From Gemmata obscuriglobus (GTDB taxonomy: Bacteria; Planctomycetota; Planctomycetia; Gemmatales; Gemmataceae), in the NCBI RefSeq assembly GCF_008065095.1, contig NZ_CP042911.1:4380001-4412000 (forward strand): a stretch of DNA of 32,000 bases, written 5' to 3'. The number at the start of each line of letters is the position of its first letter. The stretch's first letter is position 1. This document shows positions 1 through 27,535 of the stretch, piece by piece. The notes under the pieces were generated by a model. The model did no database searches and was not told the DNA's origin. It was given only the letters and a program-made list of their open reading frames with translations. The position numbers and the translations under genes are program-made.

Positions 1-441
1 AGGCAGCCCGCCCTGATGCCGGATGAACGCCAGTCCCGTGGGATCGTAGTACCCCGGCGCGTGGACGCTCACGCTGTCGAACGTGAAGCCCTGGTCGCCG
101 TCCTCGTCCGACACGCAACTCCGCCACAGGCCCATGCGCAGATCGGGGAAGTAGTACGAGTGCCGCCCTGGCCGGTACACTTCTGGCGCCAACCCGAGCC
201 GCTCGGCGATCTCGGCGATGACCTCGTCGGCCCCGGCCTCGAACAGGTCGATGCCCTCGAACGATCCCCAGTGCTTGGGCGATTCGACGAACGCCACCAC
301 CGGTGGATCACCGCGGAAATCCACCCGGATGTCGCGATCCTGGTCGAGCAGGGGTTGTACTTCCGCGCGGGTCATGCCCAGCCGCACCATGCCGGCGAGC
401 GACCGGATGCCGATGTGCGGGACCACCTCATCCGCTGCCAT
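1..441 (-). CDS. hypothetical cassette protein (start in window, 3' end beyond window edge)
   Basis: ATG at 441 lies 14 nt after the attC core and is preceded by AGAGGG. I translated it by hand and the frame is open for all 147 codons down to position 1 (MAADEVVPHIGIRSLAGMVRLGMTRAEV...). It is absent from the ORF track because it has no stop in the window. GC3 is high. Confidence 0.7.
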   Translation of the reverse strand, partial: MAADEVVPHIGIRSLAGMVRLGMTRAEVQPLLDQDRDIRVDFRGDPPVVAFVESPKHWGSFEGIDLFEAGADEVIAEIAERLGLAPEVYRPGRHSYYFPDLRMGLWRSCVSDEDGDQGFTFDSVSVHAPGYYDPTGLAFIRHQGGLP

Positions 442-455
442 CAGCGCCCTCTGTT

Positions 456-546
456 GCCGAACATACAGCTCACCTGCACCGCCATCACCGGATGAGCGGT
501 GCGTTCCGAATCAGATGGCGGTGTCAGGTGCAGCGCCGGGTTCGGC
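456..546 (-). repeat. attC: attC recombination site (91 bp)
   Basis: GCCGAAC, 5-nt unpaired spacer, AGCTCACCTGCACCGCC, 33-nt loop, GGCGGTG(T)CAGGTG(C)AGC, GCCGG, GTTCGGC. Two bulged bases sit on the plus-strand 3' arm. The layout matches attC R''/L''/L'/R'. Confidence 0.85.
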
Positions 547-634
547 TCGCCTTGCTCGGGACTGAATCGGCCGCGCCCCGTCAGCAGAGCCGCCAAATGA
601 GGCAAGCGACACCGCCGGTCAACGTTACGCCGGG

Positions 635-1045
635 TTAGGACTCTGCTTGGCTCCACTCAGCCAGCGCCGCCCCGGCACGCCGCAACTCCGCCCGCACGAC
701 GCTCAGCGTGGCGTCCGTTTGCCAGCAGCAGGCGTCGTCGGAGGTCGAGCCCATGTACACGCCGAGCAGCACCCGGCCGTCGTCCCCGGCCTCGGCCCGT
801 AGGGTAAAGTCCTCCCCGCTCGCCGTCCACTGCCGCTCGCGGCCGGCGGCGACACCCGCCGCCGATATGAGGAAGTCGCCGAGCTGTCCCATCCCAGGGA
901 AGGCGGGCTCGGCGTCGGGATCAACGGACACGGCGGCCTCGAACGCCGTTCCGCGGAGCCACGCCACCAGTACGCCCGGCAGGTCTGGGTCGGGCGACAG
1001 CGACAGCGACATACCCGCCGCCTCAGCGATAGTGACGACCGCCAC
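635..1045 (-). CDS. hypothetical cassette protein
   Basis: ORF track gives 635..1051. A GGAGG SD is followed 5 nt later by GTG at 1045, whereas the GTG at 1051 overlaps the SD. Acidic protein with no recognisable domain. Confidence 0.6.
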   Translation of the reverse strand: MAVVTIAEAAGMSLSLSPDPDLPGVLVAWLRGTAFEAAVSVDPDAEPAFPGMGQLGDFLISAAGVAAGRERQWTASGEDFTLRAEAGDDGRVLLGVYMGSTSDDACCWQTDATLSVVRAELRRAGAALAEWSQAES

Positions 1046-1068
1046 GAGCACCTCCGGGTGCCTTTGGT

Positions 1069-1159
1069 GCCGAACGAACAGCTCACCTGCACCGCCACAT
1101 CCCGAGCAGCGATGCGTCCCGAATCAGCCGGCGGTGTCAGGTGCAGTGCCGGGTTCGGC
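1069..1159 (-). repeat. attC: attC recombination site (91 bp)
   Basis: Same architecture as 456-546. Confidence 0.85.
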
Positions 1160-1170
1160 GTGTCCCACAG

Positions 1171-2106
1171 TTATTCTGTGCGGAAGGGCCTACCAGCCTC
1201 GTAGAGTTTCAATCGCGCCTGCATGGCCTTCCGTTGTTCATCCGCCTTGGGGCCGAGCAACTCGATCGCTTTCTTTTGCGACTTGATTGCCTCATCGAAC
1301 TGACCAGCCTCCGCGTAGGCGGCCGCCACCGTATCAAGGCACTCCGGTCGCTTTCCTCCGGATTTCTCATTCGACTTACTGGCGTATTCCAACGCCTTCC
1401 TGCCGTCGCGGAACTTGGGGTCGGGGCACGTTGCCAGCTGCCACGCCCAACTGTTGAGGAGGTTGGGATAGTCGGGATCACGCGTCAGCGCCTTCGCGAA
1501 GTCGGCCTGGGCATTGGCAAAGTCTTTCAGCGCGTGGCGCGCTTGGCCCCGCCGGTAATGCACCATTTCCATCTCCGGGTCGAGCCGCAGAGCCTCGGTG
1601 TAATCGGCCACGGCCTTAATGCTGTCCTGCTTGTACCACTGGTAGGCGCGGCCCCGGTAATGATGTGTGTGCGCCAGACACTTGTCTTTGCCGTCTCCGT
1701 TCCTGGAGAAATCGGTGCCGCCTTCGATCACCTTGGTGTAGTCAGCGATGGCCTTGTCGTACTCGCGCAGGGACTCATAGGCGAGGGCGCGATTGAACCG
1801 AGCACTGAAGCCCTTGGGATCGATCACCAGGATCTTCGTCAAGTCGGCCACCGCCTTCGCATACTCTCGCTTGTCGAGAGCGGGATGGCCGGCGTAGAGC
1901 GAACTGCGGCTGAAGTAGGCTTCCACGAACTGGGGGTCGAGTTCGATGGCCTTTGAGTAATCGGTAATGGCTTCGGTGTAGCGCCTGTTCTGCTCGTGGG
2001 CAAGAGCGCGCTCGTAGTAGCCTCGCGCTGTGGCGGGCTCGTCCGCACGGCCCCCGATCGCCAGCAGGCAGAGCGAGGTTACGGAAAGCAGACCGGATGT
2101 GCGCAT
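1171..2106 (-). CDS. TPR-repeat protein with N-terminal signal peptide
   Basis: 311 aa with repeated TPR-type motifs (AITDYSKAIELDP, AIADYTKVIE, AVADYTEALRLDP, AQADFAKALTRDP) and a hydrophobic N-terminus. ATG lies 19 nt after the attC core and the stop 11 nt before the next attC. Confidence 0.85.
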   Translation of the reverse strand: MRTSGLLSVTSLCLLAIGGRADEPATARGYYERALAHEQNRRYTEAITDYSKAIELDPQFVEAYFSRSSLYAGHPALDKREYAKAVADLTKILVIDPKGFSARFNRALAYESLREYDKAIADYTKVIEGGTDFSRNGDGKDKCLAHTHHYRGRAYQWYKQDSIKAVADYTEALRLDPEMEMVHYRRGQARHALKDFANAQADFAKALTRDPDYPNLLNSWAWQLATCPDPKFRDGRKALEYASKSNEKSGGKRPECLDTVAAAYAEAGQFDEAIKSQKKAIELLGPKADEQRKAMQARLKLYEAGRPFRTE

Positions 2107-2125
2107 GGGAATGCCCTCAGAAGAC

Positions 2126-3557: not shown

Positions 3558-3572
3558 AGTGCGCCTCCTGCG

Positions 3573-3664
3573 GCCGAACATAAAGCTCACCTGCACCGCC
3601 CCCTGCCAAGGGAGCGATGCCATCCAAGCTACATGGCGGTGTCAGGTGCAGCGCCGGGTTCGGC
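3573..3664 (-). repeat. attC: attC recombination site (92 bp)
   Basis: Canonical arms. The loop CCCTGCCAAGGGAGCGATGCCATCCAAGCTACAT is identical to the site at 9166-9257. Confidence 0.85.
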
Positions 3665-3670
3665 GTGCCT

Positions 3671-4015
3671 TTACTCCGCGCACAGGAAACCCGCGGCCTG
3701 CCACGCCGCAAAGCTCTGGGCTACTGGCTCAAAGCAGTCCGGCGTCATTGCCCCCATGCCGACGCTGTGGACCTGCCCGTCCGCGAGCGACAGCACGAGC
3801 GCGACCCCGCCGCTGTTGTCGCCGATCATCAGGTGCCCTGGGCAGTACGCCCGCGACTCGTGGGTGTCATTCCGCTCCATCACGGCGGTGCGACCGTACA
3901 CCAGCGTCCGCCCATTGGCCGCGAGGAACGACACGGCGGTGCCCGCTAGGAAGGAACGGTACGGCTCCGGCAGCGGTCGCCCGAGCCATGTCTCGACCTC
4001 TTCCAGCGACTGCAC
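3671..4015 (-). CDS. SMI1/KNR4 (SUKH-1) family immunity-like protein, copy 1
   Basis: 114 aa. LEEVETWLGRPLPEPYRSFL ... IGDNSGGVALVL ... is the typical SMI1_KNR4 pattern. GGAGG plus 9 nt plus GTG 4015. The track ORF 3671..4288 is an attC read-through. Confidence 0.8.
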   Translation of the reverse strand: MQSLEEVETWLGRPLPEPYRSFLAGTAVSFLAANGRTLVYGRTAVMERNDTHESRAYCPGHLMIGDNSGGVALVLSLADGQVHSVGMGAMTPDCFEPVAQSFAAWQAAGFLCAE

Positions 4016-4033
4016 GCCCTGCGCCCTCCGGTG

Positions 4034-4124
4034 GCCGAACGAACAGCTCACCTGCACCGCCATCACACGATGAGCGATGCCATCCAAACTACATGGCGGT
4101 GTCAGGTGCAGCGCCGGGTTCGGC
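4034..4124 (-). repeat. attC: attC recombination site (91 bp)
   Basis: Same architecture. Confidence 0.85.
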
Positions 4125-4478
4125 TCGCTCACCACCGCGGTTCGGGGGCGCACACCGAGCGTCGCGGTTCCGCGGAAGCCCGCCCACCACCGCGGCCGAG
4201 CGGAGCAGCACCGACCCCGGGCGCCGTGTCGCCCCACTTCGGAGGCCACCCACCACCGCCACACACAGCGACGAGCCGCGCCGACCACCCACGGGCACTA
4301 CGCGGAGCACCACCGACCCGCAATCACCGTGTCCCCATACCCGGCCACGCCCACCCGCACCTCGCGGCGACGAGCCGCGCCAGCACCGACCGGCACCACG
4401 CGGAGCCCGACGCGCGGGGTTCACCCACGCGGACCACACGCCACCGCCGCCGCACGCGCGCTCCTGCACGCGATGGTT
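4125..4478 (-). repeat. ORF-less cassette, GC-rich tandem-unit family (354 bp, 2 units)
   Basis: Bounded by attC sites and paralogous to 14 other cassettes. It has 98- and 102-nt units starting GCTCCGC (minus sense) with a CGCGGC-N5-GCCGCG hairpin. No conserved reading frame. Confidence 0.8.
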
Positions 4479-4569: not shown

Positions 4570-4926
4570 TCGCTCACGTCCGCGGTTCCGGGGCACACGC
4601 CCCGCGCCGCGCATCTGCGGATGCCCGCGGCACCGATGCGGCCGAGCGGAGCACCACCGACCCCACGCGCCGTGTCGCGGCCCATCGGAGGCCGGCCACC
4701 ACCGCACCTCGCGGCGATGAGCCGCGCCGACCACCGGCGGGCACCACGCGGAGCACCCCCGACCCGAACCGCCGTGTCCCCACCCGCATCCCGGCCACGC
4801 CCAACCGCACCTCGCGGCGACGAGCCGCGCCCGCGCCCACCGGCACTCTGCGGAGCCCGACGCGCGGGGTTCACCCACGCGGACCACACGCACACCGCCG
4901 CACGGGCGCTCCAGCACGCGAGGGTG
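4570..4926 (-). repeat. ORF-less cassette, GC-rich tandem-unit family (357 bp, 2 units)
   Basis: Same family, with two 102-nt units. Confidence 0.8.
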
Positions 4927-7210: not shown

Positions 7211-7546
7211 ATGGGCCGCGTGTATGCCGTTGACGCCGACTGCTCCCGCGGCGAGATCCAAGTCGATAGGGGCCGTTTGTGGGTGCTGTGCGGCACTTGG
7301 CAACGGGTGCCGATGCCCGTGCGGGTCGAGTTCGACGGCGACACGTCGGTCGGTGGTGCCACGGTGACCGCCTTCTTCAGTCTGTGCGGGGGGCCGGTCG
7401 AGTCCCCCGACGGCGGGGCGGCGAAGGTCCGGTTCCGGGCGGTCGCGTGTTTTCTGCAGGTGACGCCGGAAGACCCGGACCCGCACCCTCACGGCTCACG
7501 CGGGTCCGAGGTCGCGAGCGCCAGTTTCGAGTCGATGAGCTCGTAG
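7211..7546 (+). CDS. hypothetical protein, inverted relative to the array
   Basis: GAGGGAGG SD plus 6 nt plus ATG 7211. GC3 is high across 111 codons. Its 3' end overlaps 7489..7761 convergently by 58 nt. Confidence 0.5.
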   Translation: MGRVYAVDADCSRGEIQVDRGRLWVLCGTWQRVPMPVRVEFDGDTSVGGATVTAFFSLCGGPVESPDGGAAKVRFRAVACFLQVTPEDPDPHPHGSRGSEVASASFESMSS

Positions 7547-9149: not shown

Positions 9150-9165
9150 GTGTCGCCCTCCGGTG

Positions 9166-9257
9166 GCCGAACATAAAGCTCACCTGCACCGCCCCCTGCC
9201 AAGGGAGCGATGCCATCCAAGCTACATGGCGGTGTCAGGTGCAGCGCCGGGTTCGGC
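9166..9257 (-). repeat. attC: attC recombination site (92 bp), identical to 3573-3664
   Basis: Part of an exact cassette duplication. Confidence 0.85.
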
Positions 9258-9263
9258 GTGCCT

Positions 9264-13831: not shown

Positions 13832-13919
13832 GCCGAACGAACAGCTCACCTGCACCGCCACCACACGATGAGCAGTGCGTCACAATACAGCGGGCGGTGT
13901 CAGGTGCAGCGCCGGGTTC
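13832..13919 (-). repeat. attC: attC recombination site interrupted by an IS (remaining core bases at 15177-15184)
   Basis: Canonical up to ...GCAGCGCCGGGTTC, then the IS inverted repeat begins. GGTTCGGC resumes after the IS. Confidence 0.8.
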
Positions 13920-15176
13920 CAGTAGTTTCAAGTTGGCGGCTTGGTTTTGTTGGCCGATCGTGCAGTAGTAATGGACTTATTTTCGCCATCTGTAGGTGCC
14001 AGCCCATCGGCCAACAGTATCAGGCATACCGCCGCCAGTGTCCACCCGAGGCCGCGGGCTGAGCGGGACCACAACCAGGCGTTACGCAGGATCAGCCCGA
14101 CGGCCACCCACAGGAGTCGCACGACCCCATCGGTGGTCGAGGTCCGGGGCCGAACCTGCCCCAACTGGCGGTAGCTGCTCTCGATCCCGAATCGGGTCCG
14201 GTACAGGTCCCGAATCGCCACCGGGCTCCCGCTCACCCGCCACACCGCGTACAGTAACTTCTTGCTCCGCCGGCCCCCGGTCCGCCGGTACCGGTAGCTC
14301 TTGTGAGCGATCACCACGTGCACCCGCACCGAGGTGCCCCGATCCGCGTGGGTGTACGCATATCGACCCGCGCCCCGCCGCCGCACGGCCCGCAACCCGA
14401 CCCCCTTCACCCCGGGCCGGGGCTTGCGGCCCCGGACCACGGCCGGGATCACGAACGGCACACCCCGCGCCTGGAGCAACCGCATCACCGCGATCGAGAA
14501 GAACGCCTTGTCCAGCAGCGCGACCCGGACCGTAACCCGTGCCGCCGTCACCTGATCCAACAGCCGGGTGAGCACCGCGGTCATCGGCTCCTTCTCGCCC
14601 ACGGCCGTCAACCCGAGCGTGTACCGGTCCGGTCCCCCGACGAGGCACGCGGTGGCGTACGTGTGGAACGTGTGGGTGCCGCCGGCCCCCTTGGACCGGG
14701 TGGTGTCCCGGTTCGGCGTCCCGAAGTACCCGATCCGGTGGTAGTCGATCGCGACCCGAGCCGCCCGCTTCCGCTTGCCGAGCGGGGCGTGGAGGGCCGG
14801 CCGCAACCGCCGCTCGAGGGTGCGGCGCCGCTTGGGCAGCGTGAGGTACAAGCAATCCCAGATGGCCTGCCCGGACGGGGCGTCGGCGATCGCGGCACAG
14901 GCCGCGGCCACCGAGCGGGCGAACGCCGCGGCGAACAGCACCACCCGCCACACCACCTCGGGTGTACAGGTGCGGCGACGCTTGGGCAGTTGGACCGCAC
15001 GGCCGAGCCAGTCGGTCAGGACCGGACGGAGGTGCCGGGTGGCGTGGGCCGGGGTGGCTCGGATAGACTGACGTTTGGGTCGCATGGGGGCTCCGACAGT
15101 GGAGGCGTGGTAACCACCATTGACCGGTAAACCCATGCGGCCCGCTACTCATAAATCGCCCAACTTGAAACTACTG
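13920..15176 (-). mobile_element. IS element, IS4/ISH3-like (1257 bp)
   Basis: Perfect terminal inverted repeats CAGTAGTTTCAAGTTGG / CCAACTTGAAACTACTG, flanking direct repeat GGTTC (or GTT if the repeats are 18 bp), and a single DDE transposase ORF. Confidence 0.85.
13928..15085 (-). CDS. DDE transposase (IS4 superfamily, DDE_Tnp_1-like)
   Basis: Track ORF is 13928..15136. I prefer ATG 15085 because of GGAG upstream. Motifs: VAIDYH, LLDKAFFS, and YRTRFGIESSYRQLGQ (Y-R-E signature). Confidence 0.8.
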   Translation of the reverse strand: MRPKRQSIRATPAHATRHLRPVLTDWLGRAVQLPKRRRTCTPEVVWRVVLFAAAFARSVAAACAAIADAPSGQAIWDCLYLTLPKRRRTLERRLRPALHAPLGKRKRAARVAIDYHRIGYFGTPNRDTTRSKGAGGTHTFHTYATACLVGGPDRYTLGLTAVGEKEPMTAVLTRLLDQVTAARVTVRVALLDKAFFSIAVMRLLQARGVPFVIPAVVRGRKPRPGVKGVGLRAVRRRGAGRYAYTHADRGTSVRVHVVIAHKSYRYRRTGGRRSKKLLYAVWRVSGSPVAIRDLYRTRFGIESSYRQLGQVRPRTSTTDGVVRLLWVAVGLILRNAWLWSRSARGLGWTLAAVCLILLADGLAPTDGENKSITTARSANKTKPPT

Positions 15177-15184
15177 GGTTCGGC

Positions 15185-17201: not shown

Positions 17202-17292
17202 GCCGAACGAACAGCTCACCTGCACCGCCCCCTCCCAGGGAGCGGTGCCATCCAGACTACATGGCGGTGTCAGGTGCAGCGCCGGGTTCGGC
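17202..17292 (-). repeat. attC: attC recombination site (91 bp)
   Basis: Same architecture. Confidence 0.85.
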
Positions 17293-18268: not shown

Positions 18269-18332
18269 GCGCGGACCTCCGCGGTTCCGGGCACACGCCG
18301 AGCGCCGCGGCTCCGCGGATGCCCGGGCCACC
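18269..18332 (-). repeat. ORF-less cassette, tandem-unit family, part 1 (split by an IS)
   Basis: Continues at 19639. Removing the IS and one target-duplication copy restores the family consensus (compare 17718-17800). Confidence 0.75.
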
Positions 18333-19638
18333 AGGGCAAACGCACTCAATCCCCTAGGAATCGCTGGATTCTAGCTAATTTTGAGGCGTGTGATCGAGCG
18401 GCCATCGCTCGCCTCCTGCGCATGTGCGGCCCCGCCTCCATATGATTCTGGCGCGCCCTCACCGCCTCGGAGTCTGCCGATGAGTGCCGCCCCCGGCCCA
18501 CGCCCGTTAATCGAGTACCTGTCCCAGATCCCGGATCCGCGGGTCGAGTTGAAGTGCTTCCACGACTTGATTGATGTACTCATGATCGTGACCTGTGGGA
18601 CGATCGTCGGGGCCGATGACTTCGTGTCGATCGCCGAGTTCGCGCGGGCCAAGGAGTCCTGGTTCCGGGACCGGCTGGGGCTGACGCTGCGCAACGGGAT
18701 TCCGTCCCACGACACCCTCAACCGGGTGTTCGCGCTGGTCCGCCCGGAGGCGTTCGGGCGGTGCTTCCGGGCGTGGGTCGCGGACGCCGCCGAGGGCCTC
18801 CGGGTGCCCCACATCCCGATCGACGGGAAGACCATGCGGGGGTCCAAGCGGGTCACCGGCACGGGGGCTCGCAAGGCCACACACATCGTCAGCGCATGGG
18901 CTCAGCAGTTGGGCCTCACGTTGGCCCAGGTGAAGACCGACGAGAAGTCCAACGAGATCACCGCGATCCCGGAACTGCTGGAGCGGCTGGACCTCGCGGG
19001 GGCCCTGGTGAGCATCGACGCGATGGGCACCCAGAAGGACATCGCCCAGCAGATCGTGGCCGCCAAGGGGGACTACCTGCTGGCGGTCAAGGACAACCAG
19101 CCGCGGCTGCTCGAGGACATCCAGCGGTTGGCCGAGGGGGCCCTAGAGGCGAGCTACGCGGGCCGCTCGACCGACCTCAACGAAGGAACGGGCCACGGGC
19201 GCGAGGAGATGCGGTTCTGTTTCGTGATCGACGACCTGGAGTCGATCCGGGACCGGAATGTGTGGCCCCGGTTGCGGTCCGTCGTGGTGCTCGTCAGCAG
19301 CCGCACGGTCGCCGGTAGGACGAGCGACGAGGTGCGGTATTACATCAGCTCGCGGAAGGCATCGGCCAAGCGGTTCCAAACGTGGATCCGGGCTCATTGG
19401 TGCATCGAGAATTCATGCCATTGGGTGCTGGATGTCGCGTTCCGAGAAGACGACCACCGACTCCGTGAAGGGCACGGCCCGCAGAATATGGCCCTCGTGC
19501 GCAAGATCGCCTTGGCGATGTTGAAGAAGGCAAACGCCAAATGTGGGATCAAGAACCGGCGACTCAAGGCCGGATGGGATAATACCTACCTCGAACAGGT
19601 ACTACTGAAAAATCCCGAGGATTGAGTGCGTTTGCCCT
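18333..19638 (+). mobile_element. ISAs1-family insertion sequence (~1.3 kb)
   Basis: Terminal inverted repeats AGGGCAAACGCACTCAATCC / GGATTGAGTGCGTTTGCCCT. A 10-12 bp target duplication (G)CCCGGGCCAC(C) lies at 18321-18332 and 19639-19650. Confidence 0.85.
18480..19625 (+). CDS. ISAs1-family transposase
   Basis: Track ORF is 18381..19625. I prefer ATG 18480. The N-terminal LSQIPDPRVELKCFHDLIDVLMIVTCGTIVGADDFVSIAEFARAK and the later IDAMGTQKDIA and HWCIENSCHWVLDVAFREDD are hallmarks of this family. Confidence 0.85.
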   Translation: MSAAPGPRPLIEYLSQIPDPRVELKCFHDLIDVLMIVTCGTIVGADDFVSIAEFARAKESWFRDRLGLTLRNGIPSHDTLNRVFALVRPEAFGRCFRAWVADAAEGLRVPHIPIDGKTMRGSKRVTGTGARKATHIVSAWAQQLGLTLAQVKTDEKSNEITAIPELLERLDLAGALVSIDAMGTQKDIAQQIVAAKGDYLLAVKDNQPRLLEDIQRLAEGALEASYAGRSTDLNEGTGHGREEMRFCFVIDDLESIRDRNVWPRLRSVVVLVSSRTVAGRTSDEVRYYISSRKASAKRFQTWIRAHWCIENSCHWVLDVAFREDDHRLREGHGPQNMALVRKIALAMLKKANAKCGIKNRRLKAGWDNTYLEQVLLKNPED

Positions 19639-19921
19639 GCCCGGGCCACCGGTGCGGCCGAGCGGAGCACCACCGAACCGACGCCCCGTGTCCCGGCATA
19701 TCGAGGGCCACGCCCACCGACAACTCGCGGCGACGAGCCGCGCCGACCACCGGCGGGCACCACGCGGAGCACCACCGACCCGAACCACCGTGTCCCCACC
19801 CGCGCCTCGCGGCGGCGAGCCGCGCCCGCTCCGACCGGCACCACGCGGAGCCCGACACGCGCGGTTCACTCACGCGGACCACGCGCCCACCACCGCACGC
19901 GCGCTCCTGCACGCGATGGTG
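19639..19921 (-). repeat. ORF-less cassette, tandem-unit family, part 2
   Basis: See 18269-18332. Confidence 0.75.
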
Positions 19922-20561: not shown

Positions 20562-20796
20562 GCGCGCACCACCGCGGTTCGCTTCTGCGCCGTTGCGCAC
20601 GCGGCTGCGCGGAGCCCGCGCCGGCGCCGCGCATCGGCCGTGCCCGAGGCCGCGACATGCGCGGTGCCGTGCGGCCCGCCGCTGCATCTCAACCGGGGCC
20701 GCGGCGACACCCGGCACCTCGTGCGACACAACCGTCTTACGCACCGCGGGCCACGCGCCCACCACCGCCGCACGCGCGTTCATGCACGCGATGGTA
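20562..20796 (-). repeat. ORF-less cassette, subfamily b (235 bp)
   Basis: Related to 10538-10800. Confidence 0.7.
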
Positions 20797-20887: not shown

Positions 20888-21221
20888 TCGCTCACATCCG
20901 CGCAGCGCATCCGCGGATGCCCGCCCACCGGTGCGACCGGGCGGAGCACCACCGAACCACGGCGCCGTGTCCCGACACATCGGGGGCCACCCACCACCGC
21001 CACACGCGGCGATGAGCCGCGCCCGCGACCGATCGGTCTCAGCGGAGCACCACCGACCCGCACCACCGTGTCCCCATCCGCACCCGGCCACAACCACCGC
21101 AAGCTCGCGGCGACGAGCCGCGCCAGCCCCAACCGGCACCACGCGAAGCCCGACGCGCGCGGTTCACCACCGCGGACCACACGCACACCGCCGCACGCGC
21201 GCCCTCATGCACGCGATGGTT
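20888..21221 (-). repeat. ORF-less cassette, tandem-unit family (334 bp)
   Basis: Same family. Confidence 0.8.
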
Positions 21222-21763: not shown

Positions 21764-21854
21764 GCCGAACATAAAGCTCACCTGCACTGCCAGGATCGAG
21801 TGAGCAACACAACGCAGATCAGATGGCGGTGTCAGGTGCAGCGCCGGGTTCGGC
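21764..21854 (-). repeat. attC: attC recombination site (91 bp)
   Basis: Same architecture. Confidence 0.85.
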
Positions 21855-22641: not shown

Positions 22642-22732
22642 GCCGAACATAAAGCTCACCTGCACCGCCCTCACCGGATGAGCGGTGCGTCCCGAATCAG
22701 CCGGCGGTGTCAGGTGCAGCGCCGGGTTCGGC
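22642..22732 (-). repeat. attC: attC recombination site (91 bp), identical to 23997-24087
   Basis: Part of an exact cassette duplication. Confidence 0.85.
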
Positions 22733-23146
22733 GTTTGGGGATAACCCGGCGGCCAGGAACGCGGGGAACGAAGGGGCCATCTCGTGGATGCCGCCAAAGT
22801 CGTGATCCTCGACCAGCACTCGCCCGGACGAGAGCTCGATGCCGAACGGGTTGCCGCCGCCATCCCAACCGATGATGAACACTCCTCGCATGTGCCAGAA
22901 CTCGTTGTCCGCTCGGAACTGGCGGTGCGAATCGGCCAACTCGGGCAGCCCGTCGATCCACTCGCCGTCACCGCCCACGCGCCCGCCGCACACCGTCAGG
23001 TACTCGCGGAACGCTGGCGGGATCGTCCCGAACTCGACCTCGAACGCCCGCAGGTCGCCCTCGGCGGCCGGCGGGTGGCGTTCCTCCTCAGGGCAGGCGT
23101 GCCACGCCGCGACAAGGAGTTGCCGCAGTCGCTCGTTCACATGCAA
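22697..23146 (-). CDS. SMI1/KNR4 (SUKH-1) family immunity-like protein, type B copy 1
   Basis: LRAFEVEFGTIPPAFREYL ... IIGWDGGGNPFGIEL ... APSFPAFL is the SMI1_KNR4 pattern. The track gives a TTG start at 23146, but GTG 23140 has better AGAGGG spacing. The stop lies inside the attC. Confidence 0.8.
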   Translation of the reverse strand: MHVNERLRQLLVAAWHACPEEERHPPAAEGDLRAFEVEFGTIPPAFREYLTVCGGRVGGDGEWIDGLPELADSHRQFRADNEFWHMRGVFIIGWDGGGNPFGIELSSGRVLVEDHDFGGIHEMAPSFPAFLAAGLSPNAEPGAAPDTAG

Positions 23147-23156
23147 GCCCTCTGTG

Positions 23157-23247
23157 GCCGAACAGAAAGCTCACCTGCACCGCCATCATGGGATGAGCGA
23201 TGCGTCCCGAATCAGCGGGCGGTGTCAGGTGCAGCGCCGGGTTCGGC
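23157..23247 (-). repeat. attC: attC recombination site (91 bp)
   Basis: Same architecture. Confidence 0.85.
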
Positions 23248-23390
23248 TCTTCGTCGGCCGTAGCGGTTCCGCGGAGCCCGCTCCACCGACACACATCCGT
23301 AGAGCCACCACCGACGCGCGTCCGCGGAGCCGCGACCGCGCATCTGCTGCACCCGCCTGGCCGCCGAAGTCCGCCGAGGCAAGCCTCTGT
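23248..23390 (-). repeat. 3' untranslated part of a cassette containing a fragment of the ORF-less family
   Basis: 23248-~23320 (GCGGTTCCGCGGAGCCCGC ... CATCCGTAGAGCCACCACCGAC) aligns with the attC-adjacent module of 24602-24937 and 15185-15521. Confidence 0.6.
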
Positions 23391-23654
23391 TCAAGTCTCC
23401 GACGTGCCCGGAAGCCGGGCGCCGCAGAACGAGCAACGGGTGAGGCTCGGTCCAACCAGGATCGACACCCGGCGACACGACAGGCACACGGCCCGTCGCA
23501 CCCCGACTGCTACCGCGATAGCCCCCACCACAGCGCCAAGACCGGTGAACATCAGCGACAGAGGCCACATCTGCGAGAGCAGTAATCCGCCGAAGAACAG
23601 GATAGCGGCAACTGTCAATCCGTGCCGGTATGTTCTTCGTCGCCATTCTGCCAC
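23391..23654 (-). CDS. small membrane protein with C-terminal CxxC-x13-CxxC zinc-ribbon
   Basis: Track ORF 23391..23861 is a read-through. AGAGGG plus 6 nt plus GTG 23654. 87 aa with two hydrophobic helices followed by CLSCRRVSILVGPSLTRCSFCG. Confidence 0.55.
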   Translation of the reverse strand: MAEWRRRTYRHGLTVAAILFFGGLLLSQMWPLSLMFTGLGAVVGAIAVAVGVRRAVCLSCRRVSILVGPSLTRCSFCGARLPGTSET

Positions 23655-23670
23655 CGTTCGCCCTCTGCTT

Positions 23671-23996: not shown

Positions 23997-24087
23997 GCCG
24001 AACATAAAGCTCACCTGCACCGCCCTCACCGGATGAGCGGTGCGTCCCGAATCAGCCGGCGGTGTCAGGTGCAGCGCCGGGTTCGGC
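23997..24087 (-). repeat. attC: attC recombination site (91 bp), identical to 22642-22732
   Basis: Part of an exact cassette duplication. Confidence 0.85.
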
Positions 24088-24501
24088 GTTTGGGGATAAC
24101 CCGGCGGCCAGGAACGCGGGGAACGAAGGGGCCATCTCGTGGATGCCGCCAAAGTCGTGATCCTCGACCAGCACTCGCCCGGACGAGAGCTCGATGCCGA
24201 ACGGGTTGCCGCCGCCATCCCAACCGATGATGAACACTCCTCGCATGTGCCAGAACTCGTTGTCCGCTCGGAACTGGCGGTGCGAATCGGCCAACTCGGG
24301 CAGCCCGTCGATCCACTCGCCGTCACCGCCCACGCGCCCGCCGCACACCGTCAGGTACTCGCGGAACGCTGGCGGGATCGTCCCGAACTCGACCTCGAAC
24401 GCCCGCAGGTCGCCCTCGGCGGCCGGCGGGTGGCGTTCCTCCTCAGGGCAGGCGTGCCACGCCGCGACAAGGAGTTGCCGCAGTCGCTCGTTCACATGCA
24501 A
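24052..24501 (-). CDS. SMI1/KNR4 (SUKH-1) family immunity-like protein, type B copy 2 (identical to 22697..23146)
   Basis: Identical protein in the ORF track, and the nucleotide sequence is identical by eye. Confidence 0.8.
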   Translation of the reverse strand: MHVNERLRQLLVAAWHACPEEERHPPAAEGDLRAFEVEFGTIPPAFREYLTVCGGRVGGDGEWIDGLPELADSHRQFRADNEFWHMRGVFIIGWDGGGNPFGIELSSGRVLVEDHDFGGIHEMAPSFPAFLAAGLSPNAEPGAAPDTAG

Positions 24502-24511
24502 GCCCTCTGTG

Positions 24512-24601
24512 GCCGAACAACAAGCTCACCTGCACCGCCAGGATCGAGTGAGCATCACAACGGTGGCCGATGGCGGTGTCAGGTGCAGCGCCGGGTTCGG
24601 C
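24512..24601 (-). repeat. attC: attC recombination site (90 bp)
   Basis: Same architecture. Confidence 0.85.
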
Positions 24602-24937
24602 TTCTGCGCGGGCCGTTGCGGTTCCGCGGAGCCCGCGCTCGTACCGCGCATCCGCGGAGCCACCACCGACCCGAACCGCCGTGTCCCGGCCCACCGAGGG
24701 CCACCCACCACCGCACCTCGCGGCGATGAGCCGCGCCCACCACCGACCCGTATCGGCGGAGCACCACCGACCCGCAATCACCGTGTCCCCACCCGCACCC
24801 GGCCACGACCAACCGCACCTCGCGGCGGTGAGCCGCGCCAGACCCGACCGGCACCACGCGGAGCACGACGCGTGGGGTTCACTCACGCGGACCACACGCA
24901 CACCGCCGCCGCACGCGCGATCCAGCGCCCTCGGGGT
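24602..24937 (-). repeat. ORF-less cassette, tandem-unit family (336 bp)
   Basis: Same family. Confidence 0.8.
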
Positions 24938-25028
24938 GCCGAACATACAGCTCACCTGCACCGCCATCACCGGATGAGCGGTGCGTCACAAGTCAGATGG
25001 CGGTGTCAGGTGCAGCGCCGGGTTCGGC
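24938..25028 (-). repeat. attC: attC recombination site (91 bp)
   Basis: Same architecture. Confidence 0.85.
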
Positions 25029-25030
25029 TC

Positions 25031-25444
25031 CTATCGAGCTGCTGGGAAGTCCGAAAACGAAGCCGTCACGAACTCCAGCGCGCCGTCCGCGGTTGAGCGG
25101 AAGCCCAGGCTCACCGTACCCGTCGGCGTGTCAATTACGCCCAGGTGCGACACCAGTTCCTCGGAAAGCAGGTGATAACCACTGGCCCCATTCCGGACGA
25201 CCGACACACGGTACCCACCGACCAGAGCCGGCTGATGTTGGAGGAGCCAATCGACCGTTCCCGCGTGCCCGTGGAGCAGCGGCTCGGCGGCCAGCGCGGT
25301 GCGATCCGAGGCGACAACCGCGGCGGCCACGCGCTCTGTTGCCGCGATGGCCTCAGGTGGGGCGGCTGACCGCTGACGAACCGCTACGACGGCCACGACC
25401 GAGAGGGTGGTGGCAACCGCCAGGACCGCGACGCGGGATCGCAT
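25031..25444 (-). CDS. secreted protein (signal peptide)
   Basis: 137 aa, ATG 25444, MRSRVAVLAVATTLSVVAVVAV... The stop is 2 nt from the attC. Confidence 0.7.
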   Translation of the reverse strand: MRSRVAVLAVATTLSVVAVVAVRQRSAAPPEAIAATERVAAAVVASDRTALAAEPLLHGHAGTVDWLLQHQPALVGGYRVSVVRNGASGYHLLSEELVSHLGVIDTPTGTVSLGFRSTADGALEFVTASFSDFPAAR

Positions 25445-25461
25445 TCTTGCGCCCTCTGGGT

Positions 25462-25551
25462 GCCGAACGAACAGCTCACCTGCACCGCCCCTCCCAAGGA
25501 GCGATGCGTCCCAAGTCAGCGGGCGGTGTCAGGTGCAGCGCCGGGTTCGGC
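25462..25551 (-). repeat. attC: attC recombination site (90 bp)
   Basis: Same architecture. Confidence 0.85.
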
Positions 25552-25883
25552 TTCTGCGCCCCGCGCCGCGCATCCGCGGAGCCCGCCCACCGACGCGGCC
25601 GAGCGGAGCCACCACCGACCCGACCCGCCGTGTCCCGGCACACCGGAGGCCACGCCCACCGCCACACGCGGCGACGAGCCGCGCCAACCACACACGGGCG
25701 GCACGCGGAGCACCACCGAACCGAAACGCCGTGTCCGCACCCGCCACCGGCCGCGCCCACCGCACCTCGCGGCGACGAGCCGCGCCCGGCACCCACGGGC
25801 ACCACGCAGAGCGCCACACCACCGCCTGATGCACTGCGGACCACACGCACACCGCCGCACGCGCACTCGCGCGGCTCTGGGTG
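25552..25883 (-). repeat. ORF-less cassette, tandem-unit family (332 bp)
   Basis: Same family. Confidence 0.8.
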
Positions 25884-25974
25884 GCCGAACATAAAGCTCA
25901 CCTGCACCGCCATCATACCGTCAGCGGTGCGTCGCAGTATAGCGGGCGGTGTCAGGTGCAGCGCCGGGTTCGGC
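25884..25974 (-). repeat. attC: attC recombination site (91 bp)
   Basis: Same architecture. Confidence 0.85.
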
Positions 25975-25982
25975 TGTCTTTG

Positions 25983-26621
25983 CTACCCAATCTGCTCCCG
26001 CACCGCCTGCCACTGCTCCCAAAGGCGTTCTGGGTGCAGGCGCGGGATCGGCATCTGTGCATCCAGCGAGGCGTAGAACCGCTCGGCCTGAGACAACGGC
26101 ATGGAGGTACACGCCGCCGTATCCCGGACCTCCAGCACCTCGGCCTCGGTAAGCGGCGCCCCCTTCTGCCTCTCCCGAGCGCGTAGGAGCATAGCCAGCG
26201 GATTGAGGAACACCGGAACGGTCAACTCGGGTAGGCCGGCCCGCCGGCGGACGCTGGTAAAGTTGGCATACACGTTATCGACCAGCACCCGCCAGTCGGA
26301 GACCCCGTAGTACGTGCGGCCGACCCCGATCAACTCGTGGTGGCCGGGGTGGTGGGCTTTGCTGCGGGCGGCGGCGTTCGCCTCCTCGACCAACCCGCCG
26401 CTCCACTTGGCGGCCGCCCCGACCCGCTCAATCATGCACCGCAACACGGCCGCATCGACATCCGCCACGGCGAGTCCCATCGCCCGCCCGGTATCCACCC
26501 CGAACCCGTAAAGGAGCATACCGAGGACAGAAACATTGAGGTCGTCACGTACCCAACGCCAGTCAGCGAGGACGGCGTCGGCCAGTTCGCCGACACGATC
26601 AGTCAAAGTGCCGCGCGCCAT
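25983..26621 (-). CDS. hypothetical cassette protein (212 aa)
   Basis: Track ORF 25983..26981 is a read-through. ATG 26621 follows GGGTGAGG. Confidence 0.65.
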   Translation of the reverse strand: MARGTLTDRVGELADAVLADWRWVRDDLNVSVLGMLLYGFGVDTGRAMGLAVADVDAAVLRCMIERVGAAAKWSGGLVEEANAAARSKAHHPGHHELIGVGRTYYGVSDWRVLVDNVYANFTSVRRRAGLPELTVPVFLNPLAMLLRARERQKGAPLTEAEVLEVRDTAACTSMPLSQAERFYASLDAQMPIPRLHPERLWEQWQAVREQIG

Positions 26622-26636
26622 CCTCACCCTCTTCTT

Positions 26637-26726
26637 GCCGAACAATAAGCTCACCGGCCGCGCACGCCGCGACACGGTCACCGAAGTACGCACTTTACAG
26701 CGGTCCGGTGCAGCGCCCGGTTCGGC
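26637..26726 (-). repeat. attC: attC recombination site, variant-stem class (90 bp)
   Basis: Same class as 10448-10537 and 16648-16737. Confidence 0.8.
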
Positions 26727-27060
26727 TTCTGCGCTGGCATTTGCGGTTCCGCGGAGCCCGCGCCCGCGTCGCACATCCGCGGAGCCACCACCGATCCGCA
26801 CCACCGTGCCGCGGCACACCGGGGGCCACCCAACACCGCACCTCGCGGCGGTGAGCCGCGCCAACCCCGACCGGCACCACGCGGAGCACCACCGACTCGC
26901 ACCACCGTGTCCCAAGGCACTGCCAGCCACGCCCACCCGCACCTCGCGGCGGTGAGCCGCGCCCGCACCCACGGGCACCATGCGAAGCCCGACACCCGGG
27001 GTTCACTTACGCGGACCACGCGCCCACCACCACCGCACGCGCGATCCAGCAGCGTCGGGT
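26727..27060 (-). repeat. ORF-less cassette, tandem-unit family (334 bp)
   Basis: Same family. Confidence 0.8.
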
Positions 27061-27151
27061 GCCGAACATAAAGCTCACCTGCACCGCCATCACACGATGA
27101 GCGGTGCGTCACAAGTCAGCGGGCGGTGTCAGGTGCAGCGCCGGGTTCGGC
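27061..27151 (-). repeat. attC: attC recombination site (91 bp)
   Basis: Same architecture. Confidence 0.85.
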
Positions 27152-27507
27152 TCGATGCCCTCGGCGGTTCGGGGTCGCACGCCGAGCGCCGCGCATCCGC
27201 AGAGCCCGCGGCACCGACGCGGCTGGGCGGAGCACCACCGACCCGACGCGCCGTGTCCCGGCACACCGGAGGCCGCCCACCACCGCACCTCGCGGCGATG
27301 AGCCGCGCCGACCACCCACGGGCCACACGCGGAGCACCACCGACCCGCACCGCCGTGTCCCGACACATCGGAGGCCACGCCCAACCGCAAGCTCGCGGCG
27401 ATGAGTCGCGCCAGACCCGACCGGCACCACGCGAAGCCCGACGCGCGCGGTTCACCACCGCGGACCACACGCACACCGCCGCACGCGCGATCCAGAACGC
27501 GATGGTT
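27152..27507 (-). repeat. ORF-less cassette, tandem-unit family (356 bp); first cassette of the array
   Basis: Same family. It abuts the lone R' core at 27508-27514. Confidence 0.8.
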
Positions 27508-27535
27508 GCCGAACCAGTGTTTAGTGTGCGAGGCT

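What the first reader, a model, noticed from the sequence alone, without database searches (positions are those of the whole stretch)
1..27514. Very large, homogeneous integron cassette array (at least 45 attC sites, 46 cassettes) with no integrase in view
The sequence shows 45 repeats of one design. In minus sense each reads GCCGAAC (R''), 5 unpaired nt, an L'' arm GCT[G]CACCTG[A]CACCGCC carrying two bulged bases, a ~33-nt loop, an L' arm, then GTTCGGC (R'). Between them lie single promoterless ORFs, all on the minus strand. Most stops lie 0-11 nt from the next repeat (a few are 20-90 nt away) or inside it. This matches the established architecture of attC sites and sedentary chromosomal integrons such as the Vibrio superintegron. 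The near-identity of the sites across 27.5 kb fits that class too. An array of this size in a Gemmata-like planctomycete is uncommon, and here it continues past the window edge. The core GTTCGGC deviates from the GTTRRRY consensus at position 4.
Basis: partly seen in the sequence, partly recalled or inferred. Interest (0 to 1): 0.75.

Follow-up and report, generated by a model that had tools for sequence, protein, structure and literature searches.

The report
Integrase-less integron cassette array inside prophage
This is a real but already catalogued integron gene-cassette array of Gemmata obscuriglobus: 51 recombination sites over about 30 kb, with its own attI but no neighbouring integrase, and it sits, unusually, between the terminase and portal genes of a prophage.

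Summary
A structure-aware model finds exactly 45 copies of one about 91-nt imperfect palindrome in the window, all in one orientation, and none right of 27151. Six more lie just left of the window, giving 51 sites over about 30.4 kb. The repeats have full attC anatomy, and their stems covary. The same attC type lies beside genuine integron integrases in sister Gemmataceae genomes. Window 27509-27715 is homologous to their attI. Two cassettes have 100% identical copies whose identity ends exactly in the 7-bp cores, the signature of site-specific cassette movement. No integrase or remnant lies within 10 kb of either end.

The window is G. obscuriglobus CP025958.1. IntegronFinder 2.0's published Table S3 already lists four CALINs (39, 47, 133 and 48 attC) and one complete integron (78 attC) for this assembly. 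The array itself is therefore known, and an IntI exists in the genome.

Two things do not appear in the papers I could search. First, the array is nested between the terminase and portal genes of a prophage-like module, and a second Gemmata species shows the same nesting. Second, about a third of the cassettes belong to one ORF-less family built of about 102-nt repeats.

The parts
1..27515 (-). Cassette array. The window holds 46 cassettes and 45 attC sites. The array continues 2.86 kb left of the window, for 51 sites and about 30.4 kb in all.
456..546 (-). attC site (the R'' to R' reading is on the minus strand; the plus strand is the predicted bottom strand)
   Evidence: R1 105.6 bits; DNA fold
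1069..1159 (-). attC site
   Evidence: 95.5 bits
2126..2216 (-). attC site
   Evidence: 94.7 bits
2768..2858 (-). attC site
   Evidence: 103.1 bits
3573..3664 (-). attC site, identical to 9166-9257
   Evidence: 93.9 bits
4034..4124 (-). attC site
   Evidence: 102.7 bits
4479..4569 (-). attC site
   Evidence: 104 bits
4927..5017 (-). attC site
   Evidence: 103.5 bits
5476..5566 (-). attC site
   Evidence: 101.9 bits
6041..6131 (-). attC site
   Evidence: 102.9 bits
6539..6629 (-). attC site
   Evidence: 103 bits
7099..7189 (-). attC site
   Evidence: 98.9 bits
7783..7873 (-). attC site
   Evidence: 105.7 bits
8507..8597 (-). attC site
   Evidence: 99.9 bits
9166..9257 (-). attC site
   Evidence: 93.9 bits
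9627..9716 (-). attC site with a different loop
   Evidence: 82 bits
10448..10537 (-). attC site, stem variant CACCGGCCGCG/CGCGGTCCGGTG (compensatory changes)
   Evidence: 75.1 bits
10801..10891 (-). attC site
   Evidence: 90.7 bits
11149..11260 (-). attC site, 112 nt, long loop, variant stem
   Evidence: 73 bits
11823..11913 (-). attC site
   Evidence: 103.9 bits
12400..12490 (-). attC site
   Evidence: 101.6 bits
12828..12939 (-). attC site, 112 nt, variant stem
   Evidence: 71.7 bits; fold
13832..13920 (-). attC site interrupted in its R'' core by an IS. The rest of the core (GGTTCGGC) is at 15177-15184.
   Evidence: 83.5 bits
15522..15612 (-). attC site
   Evidence: 101.9 bits
16187..16277 (-). 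attC site
   Evidence: 98.9 bits
16648..16737 (-). attC site, variant stem
   Evidence: 66.9 bits; fold
17202..17292 (-). attC site
   Evidence: 98.5 bits
17628..17717 (-). attC site
   Evidence: 89.3 bits
18177..18268 (-). attC site
   Evidence: 87.3 bits
19922..20017 (-). attC site, divergent stem
   Evidence: 65.6 bits
20472..20561 (-). attC site
   Evidence: 91.5 bits
20797..20887 (-). attC site
   Evidence: 104 bits
21222..21289 (-). attC site, 68 nt, minimal 8-nt loop
   Evidence: 73.7 bits; fold
21764..21854 (-). attC site
   Evidence: 97.3 bits
22085..22175 (-). attC site
   Evidence: 101 bits
22642..22732 (-). attC site, identical to 23997-24087
   Evidence: 103.9 bits
23157..23247 (-). 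attC site
   Evidence: 102.9 bits
23671..23762 (-). attC site of a second subtype (GCTGAGCTGCAAGCCG...), also seen in Gemmataceae CJuql4 (L044)
   Evidence: 59.9 bits
23997..24087 (-). attC site
   Evidence: 103.9 bits
24512..24601 (-). attC site
   Evidence: 89.3 bits
24938..25028 (-). attC site
   Evidence: 106.1 bits
25462..25551 (-). attC site
   Evidence: 97.5 bits
25884..25974 (-). attC site
   Evidence: 98.3 bits
26637..26726 (-). attC site, variant stem
   Evidence: 62.9 bits
27061..27151 (-). attC site, the one closest to attI
   Evidence: 104.8 bits
27509..27715 (-). attI region. It comprises the crossover core GCCGAAC (plus strand), TTAGTG, the inverted repeat TGCGAGGC/TTCGCACA, and repeated CGCACAATAACACGG motifs at 27538 and 27692 (a variant at 27641).
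   Evidence: Homologous to the integrase-adjacent attI of L044 and L073 and to G. algarum attI copies
13919..15177 (-). Insertion sequence (DDE_Tnp_1 transposase at 13928-15136) with 18-bp perfect terminal inverted repeats, sitting inside the R'' core of an attC
18332..19639 (+). Insertion sequence (DDE_Tnp_1_assoc + DDE_Tnp_1 transposase at 18381-19625) with 21-bp perfect inverted repeats, inside an ORF-less cassette
27152..27508 (-). First cassette after attI, and a member of the ORF-less cassette family. Other members are 4125-4478, 4570-4926, 10538-10800, 10892-11148, 12491-12827, 15185-15521, 17293-17627, 17718-18176, 18269-19921 (with IS), 20562-20796, 20888-21221, 23248-23670 (partial), 24602-24937, 25552-25883 and 26727-27060.
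   Evidence: 81-87% identity between copies; 101-103-nt internal tandem units; indels mostly 1 nt; flat codon-position GC
22642..23164 (-). Cassette plus attC, duplicated at 100% identity at 23997-24519. Identity ends inside the GCCGAAC cores.
3572..4041 (-). Cassette plus attC, duplicated at 100% identity at 9165-9634 (a third copy, 96.7% identical, at 16278-16647). Identity ends inside the cores.
27932..27949 (+). Motif TTCATCCGGGCAACCCGG, 78 nt upstream of the 172-aa gene. The same motif precedes the terminase operon and a later phage operon.
28027..28545 (+). 172-aa coiled-coil phage protein, the first gene of the portal operon
   Evidence: GC3 near 1.0. Homologs sit between terminase and portal in related phage contigs.
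28594..32000 (+). Giant Mu-type portal protein (1831 aa, runs off the window)
   Evidence: Portal_Mu, E = 1.3e-29

Best explanation
This is an integron gene-cassette array with its own attI but no adjacent integrase gene, in IntegronFinder's terms a CALIN. It lies on the Gemmata obscuriglobus chromosome.

Each unit is a promoterless cassette that ends in an attC site. When single-stranded, the plus (bottom) strand of each attC folds into a hairpin. That hairpin has paired 7-bp cores, an unpaired central spacer and two extrahelical bases.

An integron integrase encoded elsewhere on the same chromosome would recognise that fold. The complete integron listed for this assembly is the likely source. 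The integrase would cut in the core between A and C of GCCGAA|C, excise cassettes as circles, and reinsert them at attI (27509-27715).

Shown here: the attC anatomy and covariation, the attI homology, the link of this attC type with genuine IntI in relatives, duplicates bounded at the cores, and the absence of intI within 10 kb.

Inferred: action of IntI in trans, and current activity.

The whole segment, from a half attC through 51 sites to attI, sits as an insertion between the terminase and portal operons of a prophage-like module.
For: - Site count and orientation: 45 one-orientation sites in the window, plus 6 beyond it, and none in the flanks.
- Fold: 7-bp core helix, 5 x 5 unpaired spacer, 3 bp, bulge, 6 bp, bulge, stem, then a variable loop.
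- Pairing within the array: 97.9% of cells paired, with 9 pairs showing compensatory change.
- Pairing across other genomes: 96.2% paired and 160 compensatory cells in 148 distinct sites, with the cores invariant.
- Strand logic: the bulges lie on the arm next to the ORF stops. Stops fall 2-21 nt from the site, or inside it, for most credible ORFs.
- Published model: the Planctomycetes attC model has the same layout, GCCUAAC-5 nt-GUU[G]CAGC.
- Link to integrases: the same attC core occurs in 62 stretches of Gemmataceae and other planctomycete genomes. In several it lies next to IntI that is 49-55% identical to IntI1 and passes TIGR02249 at 424-453 bits against a cutoff of 265.
- attI: homologous to the integrase-adjacent attI of relatives.
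- Cassette movement: two 100% identical cassette copies whose identity stops in the cores.
- Published catalogue: IntegronFinder 2.0 Table S3 lists four CALINs and one complete integron for this assembly.
Against: - No intI or remnant lies within 10 kb on either side.
- I could not read the rest of the chromosome. The presence of IntI therefore rests on a published table, and I could not map which listed CALIN (47 or 48 attC) this one is.
- The R' core GTTCGGC departs from GTTRRRY at position 4.
- The distal attC is truncated in its loop and abuts a phage gene. That junction was made by illegitimate rather than site-specific recombination.
- About a third of the cassettes carry no gene.
- No promoter-like site was found near attI, though the scan only covers sigma-70 consensus promoters.
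Confidence: 0.88

Rival explanations
1. The array is an inert relic. On this view it is a fragment of a former complete integron, separated from its integrase by rearrangement, no longer recombining and simply decaying.
For: - There is no adjacent intI.
- The distal attC is truncated.
- There are two IS insertions, one of them disrupting an attC core.
- Many cassettes are ORF-less.
- Cury et al. proposed that CALINs are often degraded integrons.
Against: - 44 of the 45 sites keep intact cores and pairing.
- attI is retained.
- Two cassettes have 100% identical copies bounded exactly at the cores, so movement is recent on the scale of point mutation.
- A complete integron with IntI is reported on the same chromosome.
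Confidence: 0.15
2. The array belongs to the phage rather than the chromosome. On this view a temperate Gemmata phage lineage carries attI plus cassettes as cargo in the variable gap between terminase and portal. The host IntI loads the array in trans, and the phage moves it between hosts.
For: - Intact terminase C-part and portal-operon genes flank the array.
- Relatives have those genes adjacent, or separated only by same-strand accessory genes.
- The same nesting on both sides is seen in Gemmata sp. SMAG_U3706, a genome that also has a canonical intI-attI locus.
- The portal operon has its own copy of the phage operon motif.
- There is precedent for CALINs with attI inside prophages.
Against: - 30 kb of cargo is large for a tailed phage of ordinary size.
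- The prophage ends, integrase and tail genes were not seen, so the prophage may be defective.
- Only two genomes show the nesting. Their contigs are short, and vertical inheritance of one old insertion explains the data equally well.
- No relative in GenBank phages and only a distant one in IMG/VR was found.
Confidence: 0.2
3. The repeats are REP- or MITE-like palindromic elements, or a CRISPR-like array, unrelated to integrons.
For: The repeats are imperfect palindromes with a highly uniform sequence.
Against: - They show a single orientation and are spaced by whole genes of 230-1650 bp.
- None occurs outside arrays in any flank examined.
- They are physically linked to IntI and attI in relatives.
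- Bulged bases sit at fixed positions, the stems covary and the cores are invariant.
Confidence: 0.01

Closest known systems
CALIN (cluster of attC sites lacking an integron integrase; Cury et al. 2016, PMC4889954; Neron et al. 2022, PMC9024848)
   Same: It has at least two attC sites with no intI within 4 kb, in a genome that also encodes IntI, with IS elements in and near the array. This very assembly is listed with four CALINs and one complete integron.
   Different: Its 51 sites far exceed the average of about 6 per CALIN. It also keeps a recognisable attI, which the CALIN definition does not require.
Sedentary chromosomal integrons such as the Vibrio cholerae superintegron
   Same: It is a long array of tens of cassettes with near-identical attC sites. 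Most cassettes encode small proteins of unknown function, and there are paralogous and duplicated cassettes.
   Different: No adjacent intI is present. In relatives the integrase is co-oriented with the cassettes rather than divergent. No toxin-antitoxin cassettes were detected in the ORFs I scanned. A third of the cassettes are ORF-less repeats.
Planctomycetes-type attC sites (taxon-specific covariance model of Ghaly et al. 2021, PMC8352920)
   Same: The layout is the same: a 7-nt R'', a 5-nt spacer, 3 paired bases, an unpaired G, then the stem.
   Different: The model consensus R'' is GCCUAAC, whereas here it is GCCGAAC. From the model's emission scores, G at that position has a probability of about 0.05. 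The L box sequence also differs.
Integrons and CALINs in phage genomes (Qi et al. 2023, PMC9892861), especially Shewanella prophage M16-3
   Same: A CALIN that begins with an attI is flanked by phage structural and terminase genes inside a prophage.
   Different: The published phage CALINs shown in that paper's examples hold only a few attC sites, whereas this one has 51. This one also sits precisely between the terminase and portal operons and recurs in a second species.

Membership tests
attC recombination site | Inverted 7-bp cores R''/R' with the conserved AAC...GTT triplets | tested here: met
   GCCGAAC...GTTCGGC is essentially invariant across 46 local and 148 foreign sites. Position 4 of R' is C, not a purine.
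attC recombination site | Folded single strand with an unpaired central spacer and extrahelical bases on the R''-L'' arm | tested here: met
   DNA folds give a 5 x 5 nt spacer and two single bulges, T and C on the plus strand, on the 3' arm. Spacing is 3 bp, bulge, 6 bp, bulge.
attC recombination site | Structure conserved while the stem sequence and loop length vary | tested here: met
   Nine pairs show compensatory change. Observed values exceed all 500 shuffles and every slid register. Sites are 68-112 nt long.
attC recombination site | Scored by the IntegronFinder attC covariance model | not testable with these tools
   The model is not available here, and Rfam holds no attC family. Published IntegronFinder 2.0 output lists CALINs of 39-133 attC in this assembly.
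attC recombination site | Recombined by an integron integrase through the bottom strand | not testable with these tools
   This needs an experiment. There is indirect support: identical cassette copies whose identity stops in the cores.
Complete integron | intI gene adjacent to attI | tested here: not met
   tblastn with a Gemmataceae IntI finds nothing better than E = 0.08 in the window plus 10 kb on each side. A phage gene follows attI.
Complete integron | attI site at the head of the array | tested here: met
   27509-27715 shares the crossover motif and the distal GGCTCGCACA..CACGGTAACG motif with the integrase-adjacent attI of L044 and L073.
Complete integron | IntI-type recombinase somewhere in the genome | not testable with these tools
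   The rest of the chromosome could not be read, and the protein search does not return the source genome's own proteins. The published table lists one complete integron with 78 attC in this assembly.
CALIN | Two or more attC sites with no integron integrase within 4 kb | tested here: met
REP / MITE | Dispersed copies in both orientations, outside a gene-by-gene array | tested here: not met
   Every locus shows a single orientation, and there are no copies in the flanks. The genome-wide test was not possible.
Prophage-embedded CALIN | Genes of one phage morphogenesis module on both sides of the array | tested here: met
   Small terminase, large-terminase N part and large-terminase C part lie on the left. 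The 172-aa protein, Mu-type portal and Mu F lie on the right. These genes are contiguous in relatives.

The most novel reading that the evidence does not exclude
The attI-plus-cassette array may be a heritable cargo module of a temperate Gemmata phage lineage. It occupies the variable gap between terminase and portal, and the host integron integrase would fill and shuffle it in trans. The phage could then carry it between hosts, or package it preferentially because it lies directly downstream of the terminase genes. That would make a phage a vehicle for a superintegron-sized cassette pool. A related idea comes from the attI-like modules bounded by cores on both sides in SMAG_U3706 arrays: attI itself may move as a cassette and seed new arrays.
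Probability: 0.15. Interest if true: 0.75.

Novelty: already known. Interest (0 to 1): 0.33.

Why it matters
The array itself adds nothing new. Integrons in Planctomycetes have been reported since 2007-2008, and this assembly's arrays are listed in a published IntegronFinder table.

The context may be worth a specialist's attention. G. obscuriglobus reportedly carries about 345 attC sites in five arrays served by one integrase. That makes it a good non-proteobacterial model for how one IntI manages several attI-bearing arrays.

The nesting between terminase and portal, seen in two species, bears on whether phages can carry large cassette pools. The abundant ORF-less cassette family shared across species is an unexplained component of these arrays.

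Tried and rejected
- Rfam, at gathering threshold over the whole window and at relaxed threshold over 24600-27800, gave no hit. Rfam has no attC family.
- The tRNA scan found none.
- I searched for the G. obscuriglobus IntI by homology. None of the top 120 hits came from the 9-Mb chromosome. The search does not return the source genome's own proteins, shown by the terminase query not finding itself. One search is therefore uninformative on this point.
- I tried the conserved synteny PhyH - 667-aa protein - DAGK - intI seen in L044 and L073 to find the orthologous locus. No hit from the source genome came back. Look-ups of P0136 and P0009 led nowhere.
- The genome-contig scan did not return G. 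obscuriglobus itself.
- tblastn of the terminase C part against GenBank phages found no match. IMG/VR held only a 25% identical relative.
- I tested the ORF-less cassette as a structured RNA. The consensus fold is weak, with a covariation term of -0.42. Single-sequence z-scores are -0.4 and +0.5. I dropped that idea.
- I tested it as a coding repeat, since 102 nt equals 34 codons. I rejected this because 270 of 299 pairwise indels are not multiples of 3 and mismatches show little periodicity.
- The sigma-70 promoter and terminator scan around attI found nothing.
- I considered and rejected REP/MITE and CRISPR readings (see the rival explanations).

Full report
**Origin of the window.** The 172-aa protein encoded at 28027-28545 is found on NCBI record CP025958.1, an 8,998,893-bp chromosome of assembly GCA_003149495.1. 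The IntegronFinder 2.0 table names this assembly Gemmata obscuriglobus. The window corresponds to roughly 3.608-3.640 Mb, read in reverse. Two fetched loci extend it. L001 covers window 18027 to 38545. L069 covers window 12106 down to -8829, in the opposite orientation.

- The short pattern GCCGAAC-N5-GCT occurs 96 times on both strands, against 4.8 expected.
- A profile built from 25 copies finds 45 sites.
- A covariance model built from the 46 distinct G. obscuriglobus copies, searched with filters off, gives exactly 45 plus-strand hits of 60-106 bits between 456 and 27151.
- Each site also gives a weaker reverse-strand echo of 16-38 bits, as expected of a palindrome. Nothing else scores above 15 bits, and there is nothing at all right of 27151.
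- The alignment shows invariant cores GCCGAAC and GTTCGGC, a 5-nt spacer on each side, a conserved stem and a variable centre.
- DNA folding of six representatives returns the same design each time: 7 paired core bases, a 5 x 5 internal loop, 3 pairs, a bulged base, 6 pairs, a bulged base, a further stem and a terminal loop. Total site length runs from 68 to 112 nt.

**Is the structure selected?**
- On the local alignment, 97.9% of cells pair, against 92% in shuffles and 28-44% in slid registers. Nine stem pairs carry compensatory changes, while the seven core pairs do not vary.
- On 148 distinct sites from other genomes aligned to the model, 96.2% pair and 160 cells show changes on both sides. 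The cores again stay constant. That alignment is fitted to the model and leans towards it, but the local MAFFT alignment gives the same picture.
- Invariant cores, covarying stems, bulges at fixed positions and a loop free to vary are the defining pattern of attC sites (established knowledge: Bouvier 2005 and 2009, MacDonald 2006, Nivina 2016).

**Strand logic.** The bulged bases lie on the 3' arm of the plus strand. In attC sites the extrahelical bases sit on the R''-L'' arm, which is the 3' arm of the recombinogenic bottom strand. So the plus strand is the bottom strand, and cassette genes should read on the minus strand with their stops next to R''. That is what is seen. Credible minus-strand ORFs (GC3 0.75-0.89, GC2 about 0.5) end 2-21 nt from the site, or inside it, in most cassettes, with a few at 53-88 nt. 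The published Planctomycetes attC model has the same layout, GCCUAAC, 5 nt, GUU, unpaired G, CAGC. It differs at core position 4, where this family has G.

**Link to integron integrases.**
- The 27-nt core pattern occurs in 62 stretches of other genomes. Nearly all are Gemmata, Gemmataceae or other Planctomycetota, and the sites are arranged in one-orientation arrays.
- The L044 protein and its relatives carry PF13495 plus PF00589. They pass NCBIfam TIGR02249 'integron integrase' over its full length at 424-453 bits, against a cutoff of 265.
- In L044 and L073 the order on one strand is DAGK (opposite strand), intI, attI, cassettes. The integrase is therefore co-oriented with the cassettes.

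**The attI.**
- The array ends at 27509-27515 with a lone GCCGAAC, followed by TTAGTG, the inverted repeat TGCGAGGC/TTCGCACA and repeated CGCACAATAACACGG motifs.
- The same architecture heads the arrays of L044, L073, L008 and L074-77 directly before the integrase stop codon. It runs GCCGAAC, 6 nt, TTAG, an inverted repeat, then ..TAACAC.. motifs.
- The distal motif GGCTCGCACA..CACGGTAACG aligns between the window and L044/L073.
- G. algarum has three copies of the window's own attI variant, at least one of them next to ordinary host genes rather than intI.
- In the window the integrase gene is simply absent after about 27715. tblastn with the Gemmataceae IntI finds nothing better than E = 0.08 in the window or in 10 kb on either side.

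**Extent.** Left of the window, L069 holds five more complete sites. A last one keeps only model positions 40-91, that is loop, L'' arm and R''. It abuts the stop codon of a phage gene. The array therefore has 51 sites and spans about 30.4 kb.

**Evidence of site-specific cassette movement.** Two cassettes exist as 100% identical copies at non-adjacent positions: 22642-23164 equals 23997-24519, and 3572-4041 equals 9165-9634. In both pairs identity begins and ends inside the shared GCCGAAC cores, where IntI crosses over. Homologous recombination or slippage would not be expected to stop there.

**Cassette content.** Most ORFs have no Pfam family. The recognisable ones are TPR, HEAT, an alpha/beta hydrolase and at least five SUKH-1 (SMI1/KNR4) immunity-like proteins.

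Sixteen of the 46 cassettes in the window form one family.
- Copies are about 335 bp long and 81-87% identical.
- Each is built of two to three tandem units of 101-103 nt.
- The family is non-coding. Codon-position GC is flat, 270 of 299 pairwise indels are not multiples of three, and mismatches show little periodicity.
- It occurs, in the same orientation relative to attC, in arrays of G. algarum and SMAG_U3706. Identity to those copies is about the same as between copies within this array.
- It matches no Rfam family and shows no convincing RNA structure.

Two insertion sequences are present. One, at 13919-15177, lies inside the R'' core of an attC. The other, at 18332-19639, lies inside an ORF-less cassette.

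**Already known?** Full-text searches found no paper that discusses Gemmata integrons. However, Table S3 of the IntegronFinder 2.0 paper lists the following for GCF_003149495.1, Gemmata obscuriglobus:

| Element | attC sites | Proteins |
|---|---|---|
| CALIN | 39 | 27 |
| CALIN | 47 | 15 |
| CALIN | 133 | 83 |
| CALIN | 48 | 36 |
| Complete integron | 78 | 43 |

The second assembly of the species shows the same pattern. My count of 51 includes one truncated site, one IS-interrupted site and several divergent sites. It fits the 48- or the 47-site CALIN, but I could not map coordinates. The attC model scores these arrays and an IntI exists in the genome. Integrons in Planctomycetes have been reported since Boucher 2007 and Nemergut 2008, and a Planctomycetes attC model exists.

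**Context not found in the papers I could search.**
- Left of the array, on the window's plus strand, lie a ParB-like protein, a DNA methyltransferase, a small-terminase-like protein and a large-terminase ATPase part (phrog_7579, E = 7.5e-103).
- A large-terminase C part follows (phrog_27743, full length, E = 4e-93). Distant homologs carry the terminase RNaseH-like domain.
- Right of attI lie a 172-aa protein, an 1831-aa Mu-type portal and Mu F.
- In related metagenomic phage contigs these genes are neighbours. In L079 (terminase C part 81% identical) only 45 bp separate the terminase stop from the homolog of the 172-aa protein, and the portal follows.
- More distant relatives have a few same-strand accessory genes there and no attC sites.
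- The terminase C terminus is intact in G. obscuriglobus (...GVFASGNGV, against ...GVFAGGNEV in L079), and the half attC starts right after its stop codon.
- The motif TTCATCCGGGCAACCC precedes the terminase operon, the 172-aa/portal operon and a later operon. L079 has it upstream of its terminase genes but not before its 172-aa homolog.
- Gemmata sp. SMAG_U3706 shows both junctions too. Its terminase C part (90% identical) is followed by a degenerate site, a reverse-strand cassette and a canonical attC. Elsewhere an attC array and attI-like modules are followed by the 172-aa homolog (57% identical) and the portal. The same MAG also has a canonical intI-attI locus.
- So the array is an insertion into the variable terminase-portal gap of a phage lineage, shared by at least two species. 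The junctions are not at attC cores, so they were made by illegitimate recombination.
- Qi et al. 2023 describe a comparable but far smaller case: a CALIN with attI, flanked by terminase and capsid genes, in a Shewanella prophage.

**Verdict.** The finding is correct and its interpretation is supported. The array is an ordinary though large member of a known class, and it is already in a published catalogue. I score interest low to moderate. The score is kept above the floor only by the prophage nesting, the multi-array single-integrase organisation of this genome and the unexplained ORF-less cassette family.

Noticed in passing
window 27152-27508 and 15 other cassettes (4125-4478, 4570-4926, 10538-10800, 10892-11148, 12491-12827, 15185-15521, 17293-17627, 17718-18176, 18269-19921, 20562-20796, 20888-21221, 23248-23670, 24602-24937, 25552-25883, 26727-27060): One ORF-less cassette family makes up about a third of the array. 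Copies are 81-87% identical and are built of 2-3 tandem units of about 102 nt with an invariant GGCGCGGCTC..CGCCGCG hairpin. The family also occurs in G. algarum and SMAG_U3706 arrays, where copies are about as divergent from these as the copies within this array are from each other. It is not coding, matches no Rfam family and has no convincing RNA fold. Its function is unknown.
   Followed up: partly
L069 14919-20936 (left of the window) and window 27716-32000: The array is nested between the terminase genes and the 172-aa/portal/Mu F operon of one prophage-like module. Those genes are adjacent in related metagenomic phage contigs. Gemmata sp. SMAG_U3706 shows the same nesting (L026, L085-87).
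   Followed up: yes
window 22642-23164 = 23997-24519; 3572-4041 = 9165-9634: Two single cassettes are duplicated at 100% identity at non-adjacent positions. Identity ends exactly in the 7-bp cores.
   Followed up: yes
window 13919-15177: An IS (DDE_Tnp_1 transposase, 18-bp perfect inverted repeats) is inserted inside the R'' core of an attC, with the core sequence GGTTC repeated on both sides. I did not test whether this IS family targets attC cores.
   Followed up: partly
L035 3512-3691, L057 3239-3420, L065 2131-2300, L026 960-1137 (all Gemmata sp. SMAG_U3706): attI-like modules of about 170 nt, mutually very similar (most aligned columns identical), are each bounded by a GCCGAAC core on both sides and lie inside cassette arrays. 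They look as if attI itself were carried as a cassette. This could explain several attI-headed arrays per genome.
   Followed up: partly
window 27932-27949; L069 18140-18155 and 16276-16291 (minus); L001 19937-19952; L079 19-34: The motif TTCATCCGGGCAACCC recurs upstream of the phage operons. It may be a phage promoter or operator. The copy before the 172-aa gene is absent from the relative that lacks the array.
   Followed up: partly
L069 14973-17569; L079-L091: This phage family has a large terminase split into separate ATPase and nuclease genes, with small ORFs between them (an Acb2/Tad1-like anti-defence gene in some). It also has giant portal proteins of 1210-1995 aa, sometimes fused to Mu F.
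   Followed up: no
window 3671-4153, 9264-9656, 16284-16628, 22697-23140, 24052-24495; L069 13135-13554: There are at least six SUKH-1 (SMI1/KNR4) immunity-like cassettes. Five are in the window and include an identical pair and a three-copy cassette family. One more lies just left of the window. No toxin-antitoxin cassettes were recognised among the ORFs scanned.
   Followed up: partly
window 7211-7546 (+) and 11501-11782 (+): Two cassettes carry credible genes on the strand opposite to the rest of the array.
   Followed up: no
L009 (MAG labelled Alcaligenaceae), L058 (Phycisphaeraceae), L020, L034, L037 and L038 (Pirellulales): The exact Gemmata-type attC core, and in L009 an IntI, occur in MAGs assigned to other orders or phyla. 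This could reflect cassette exchange or mis-binning.
   Followed up: no
window 28000-32000: The phage genes have GC3 of 0.93-1.0 and 76-79% GC. The cassette ORFs have GC3 of 0.75-0.89 and 61-74% GC per kb.
   Followed up: no
window 12107-18026 versus CP025958.1: The record coordinates implied by L001 and by L069 differ by 13 nt. The window and this record may therefore differ by a small indel in the stretch neither locus covers. I did not verify this.
   Followed up: no
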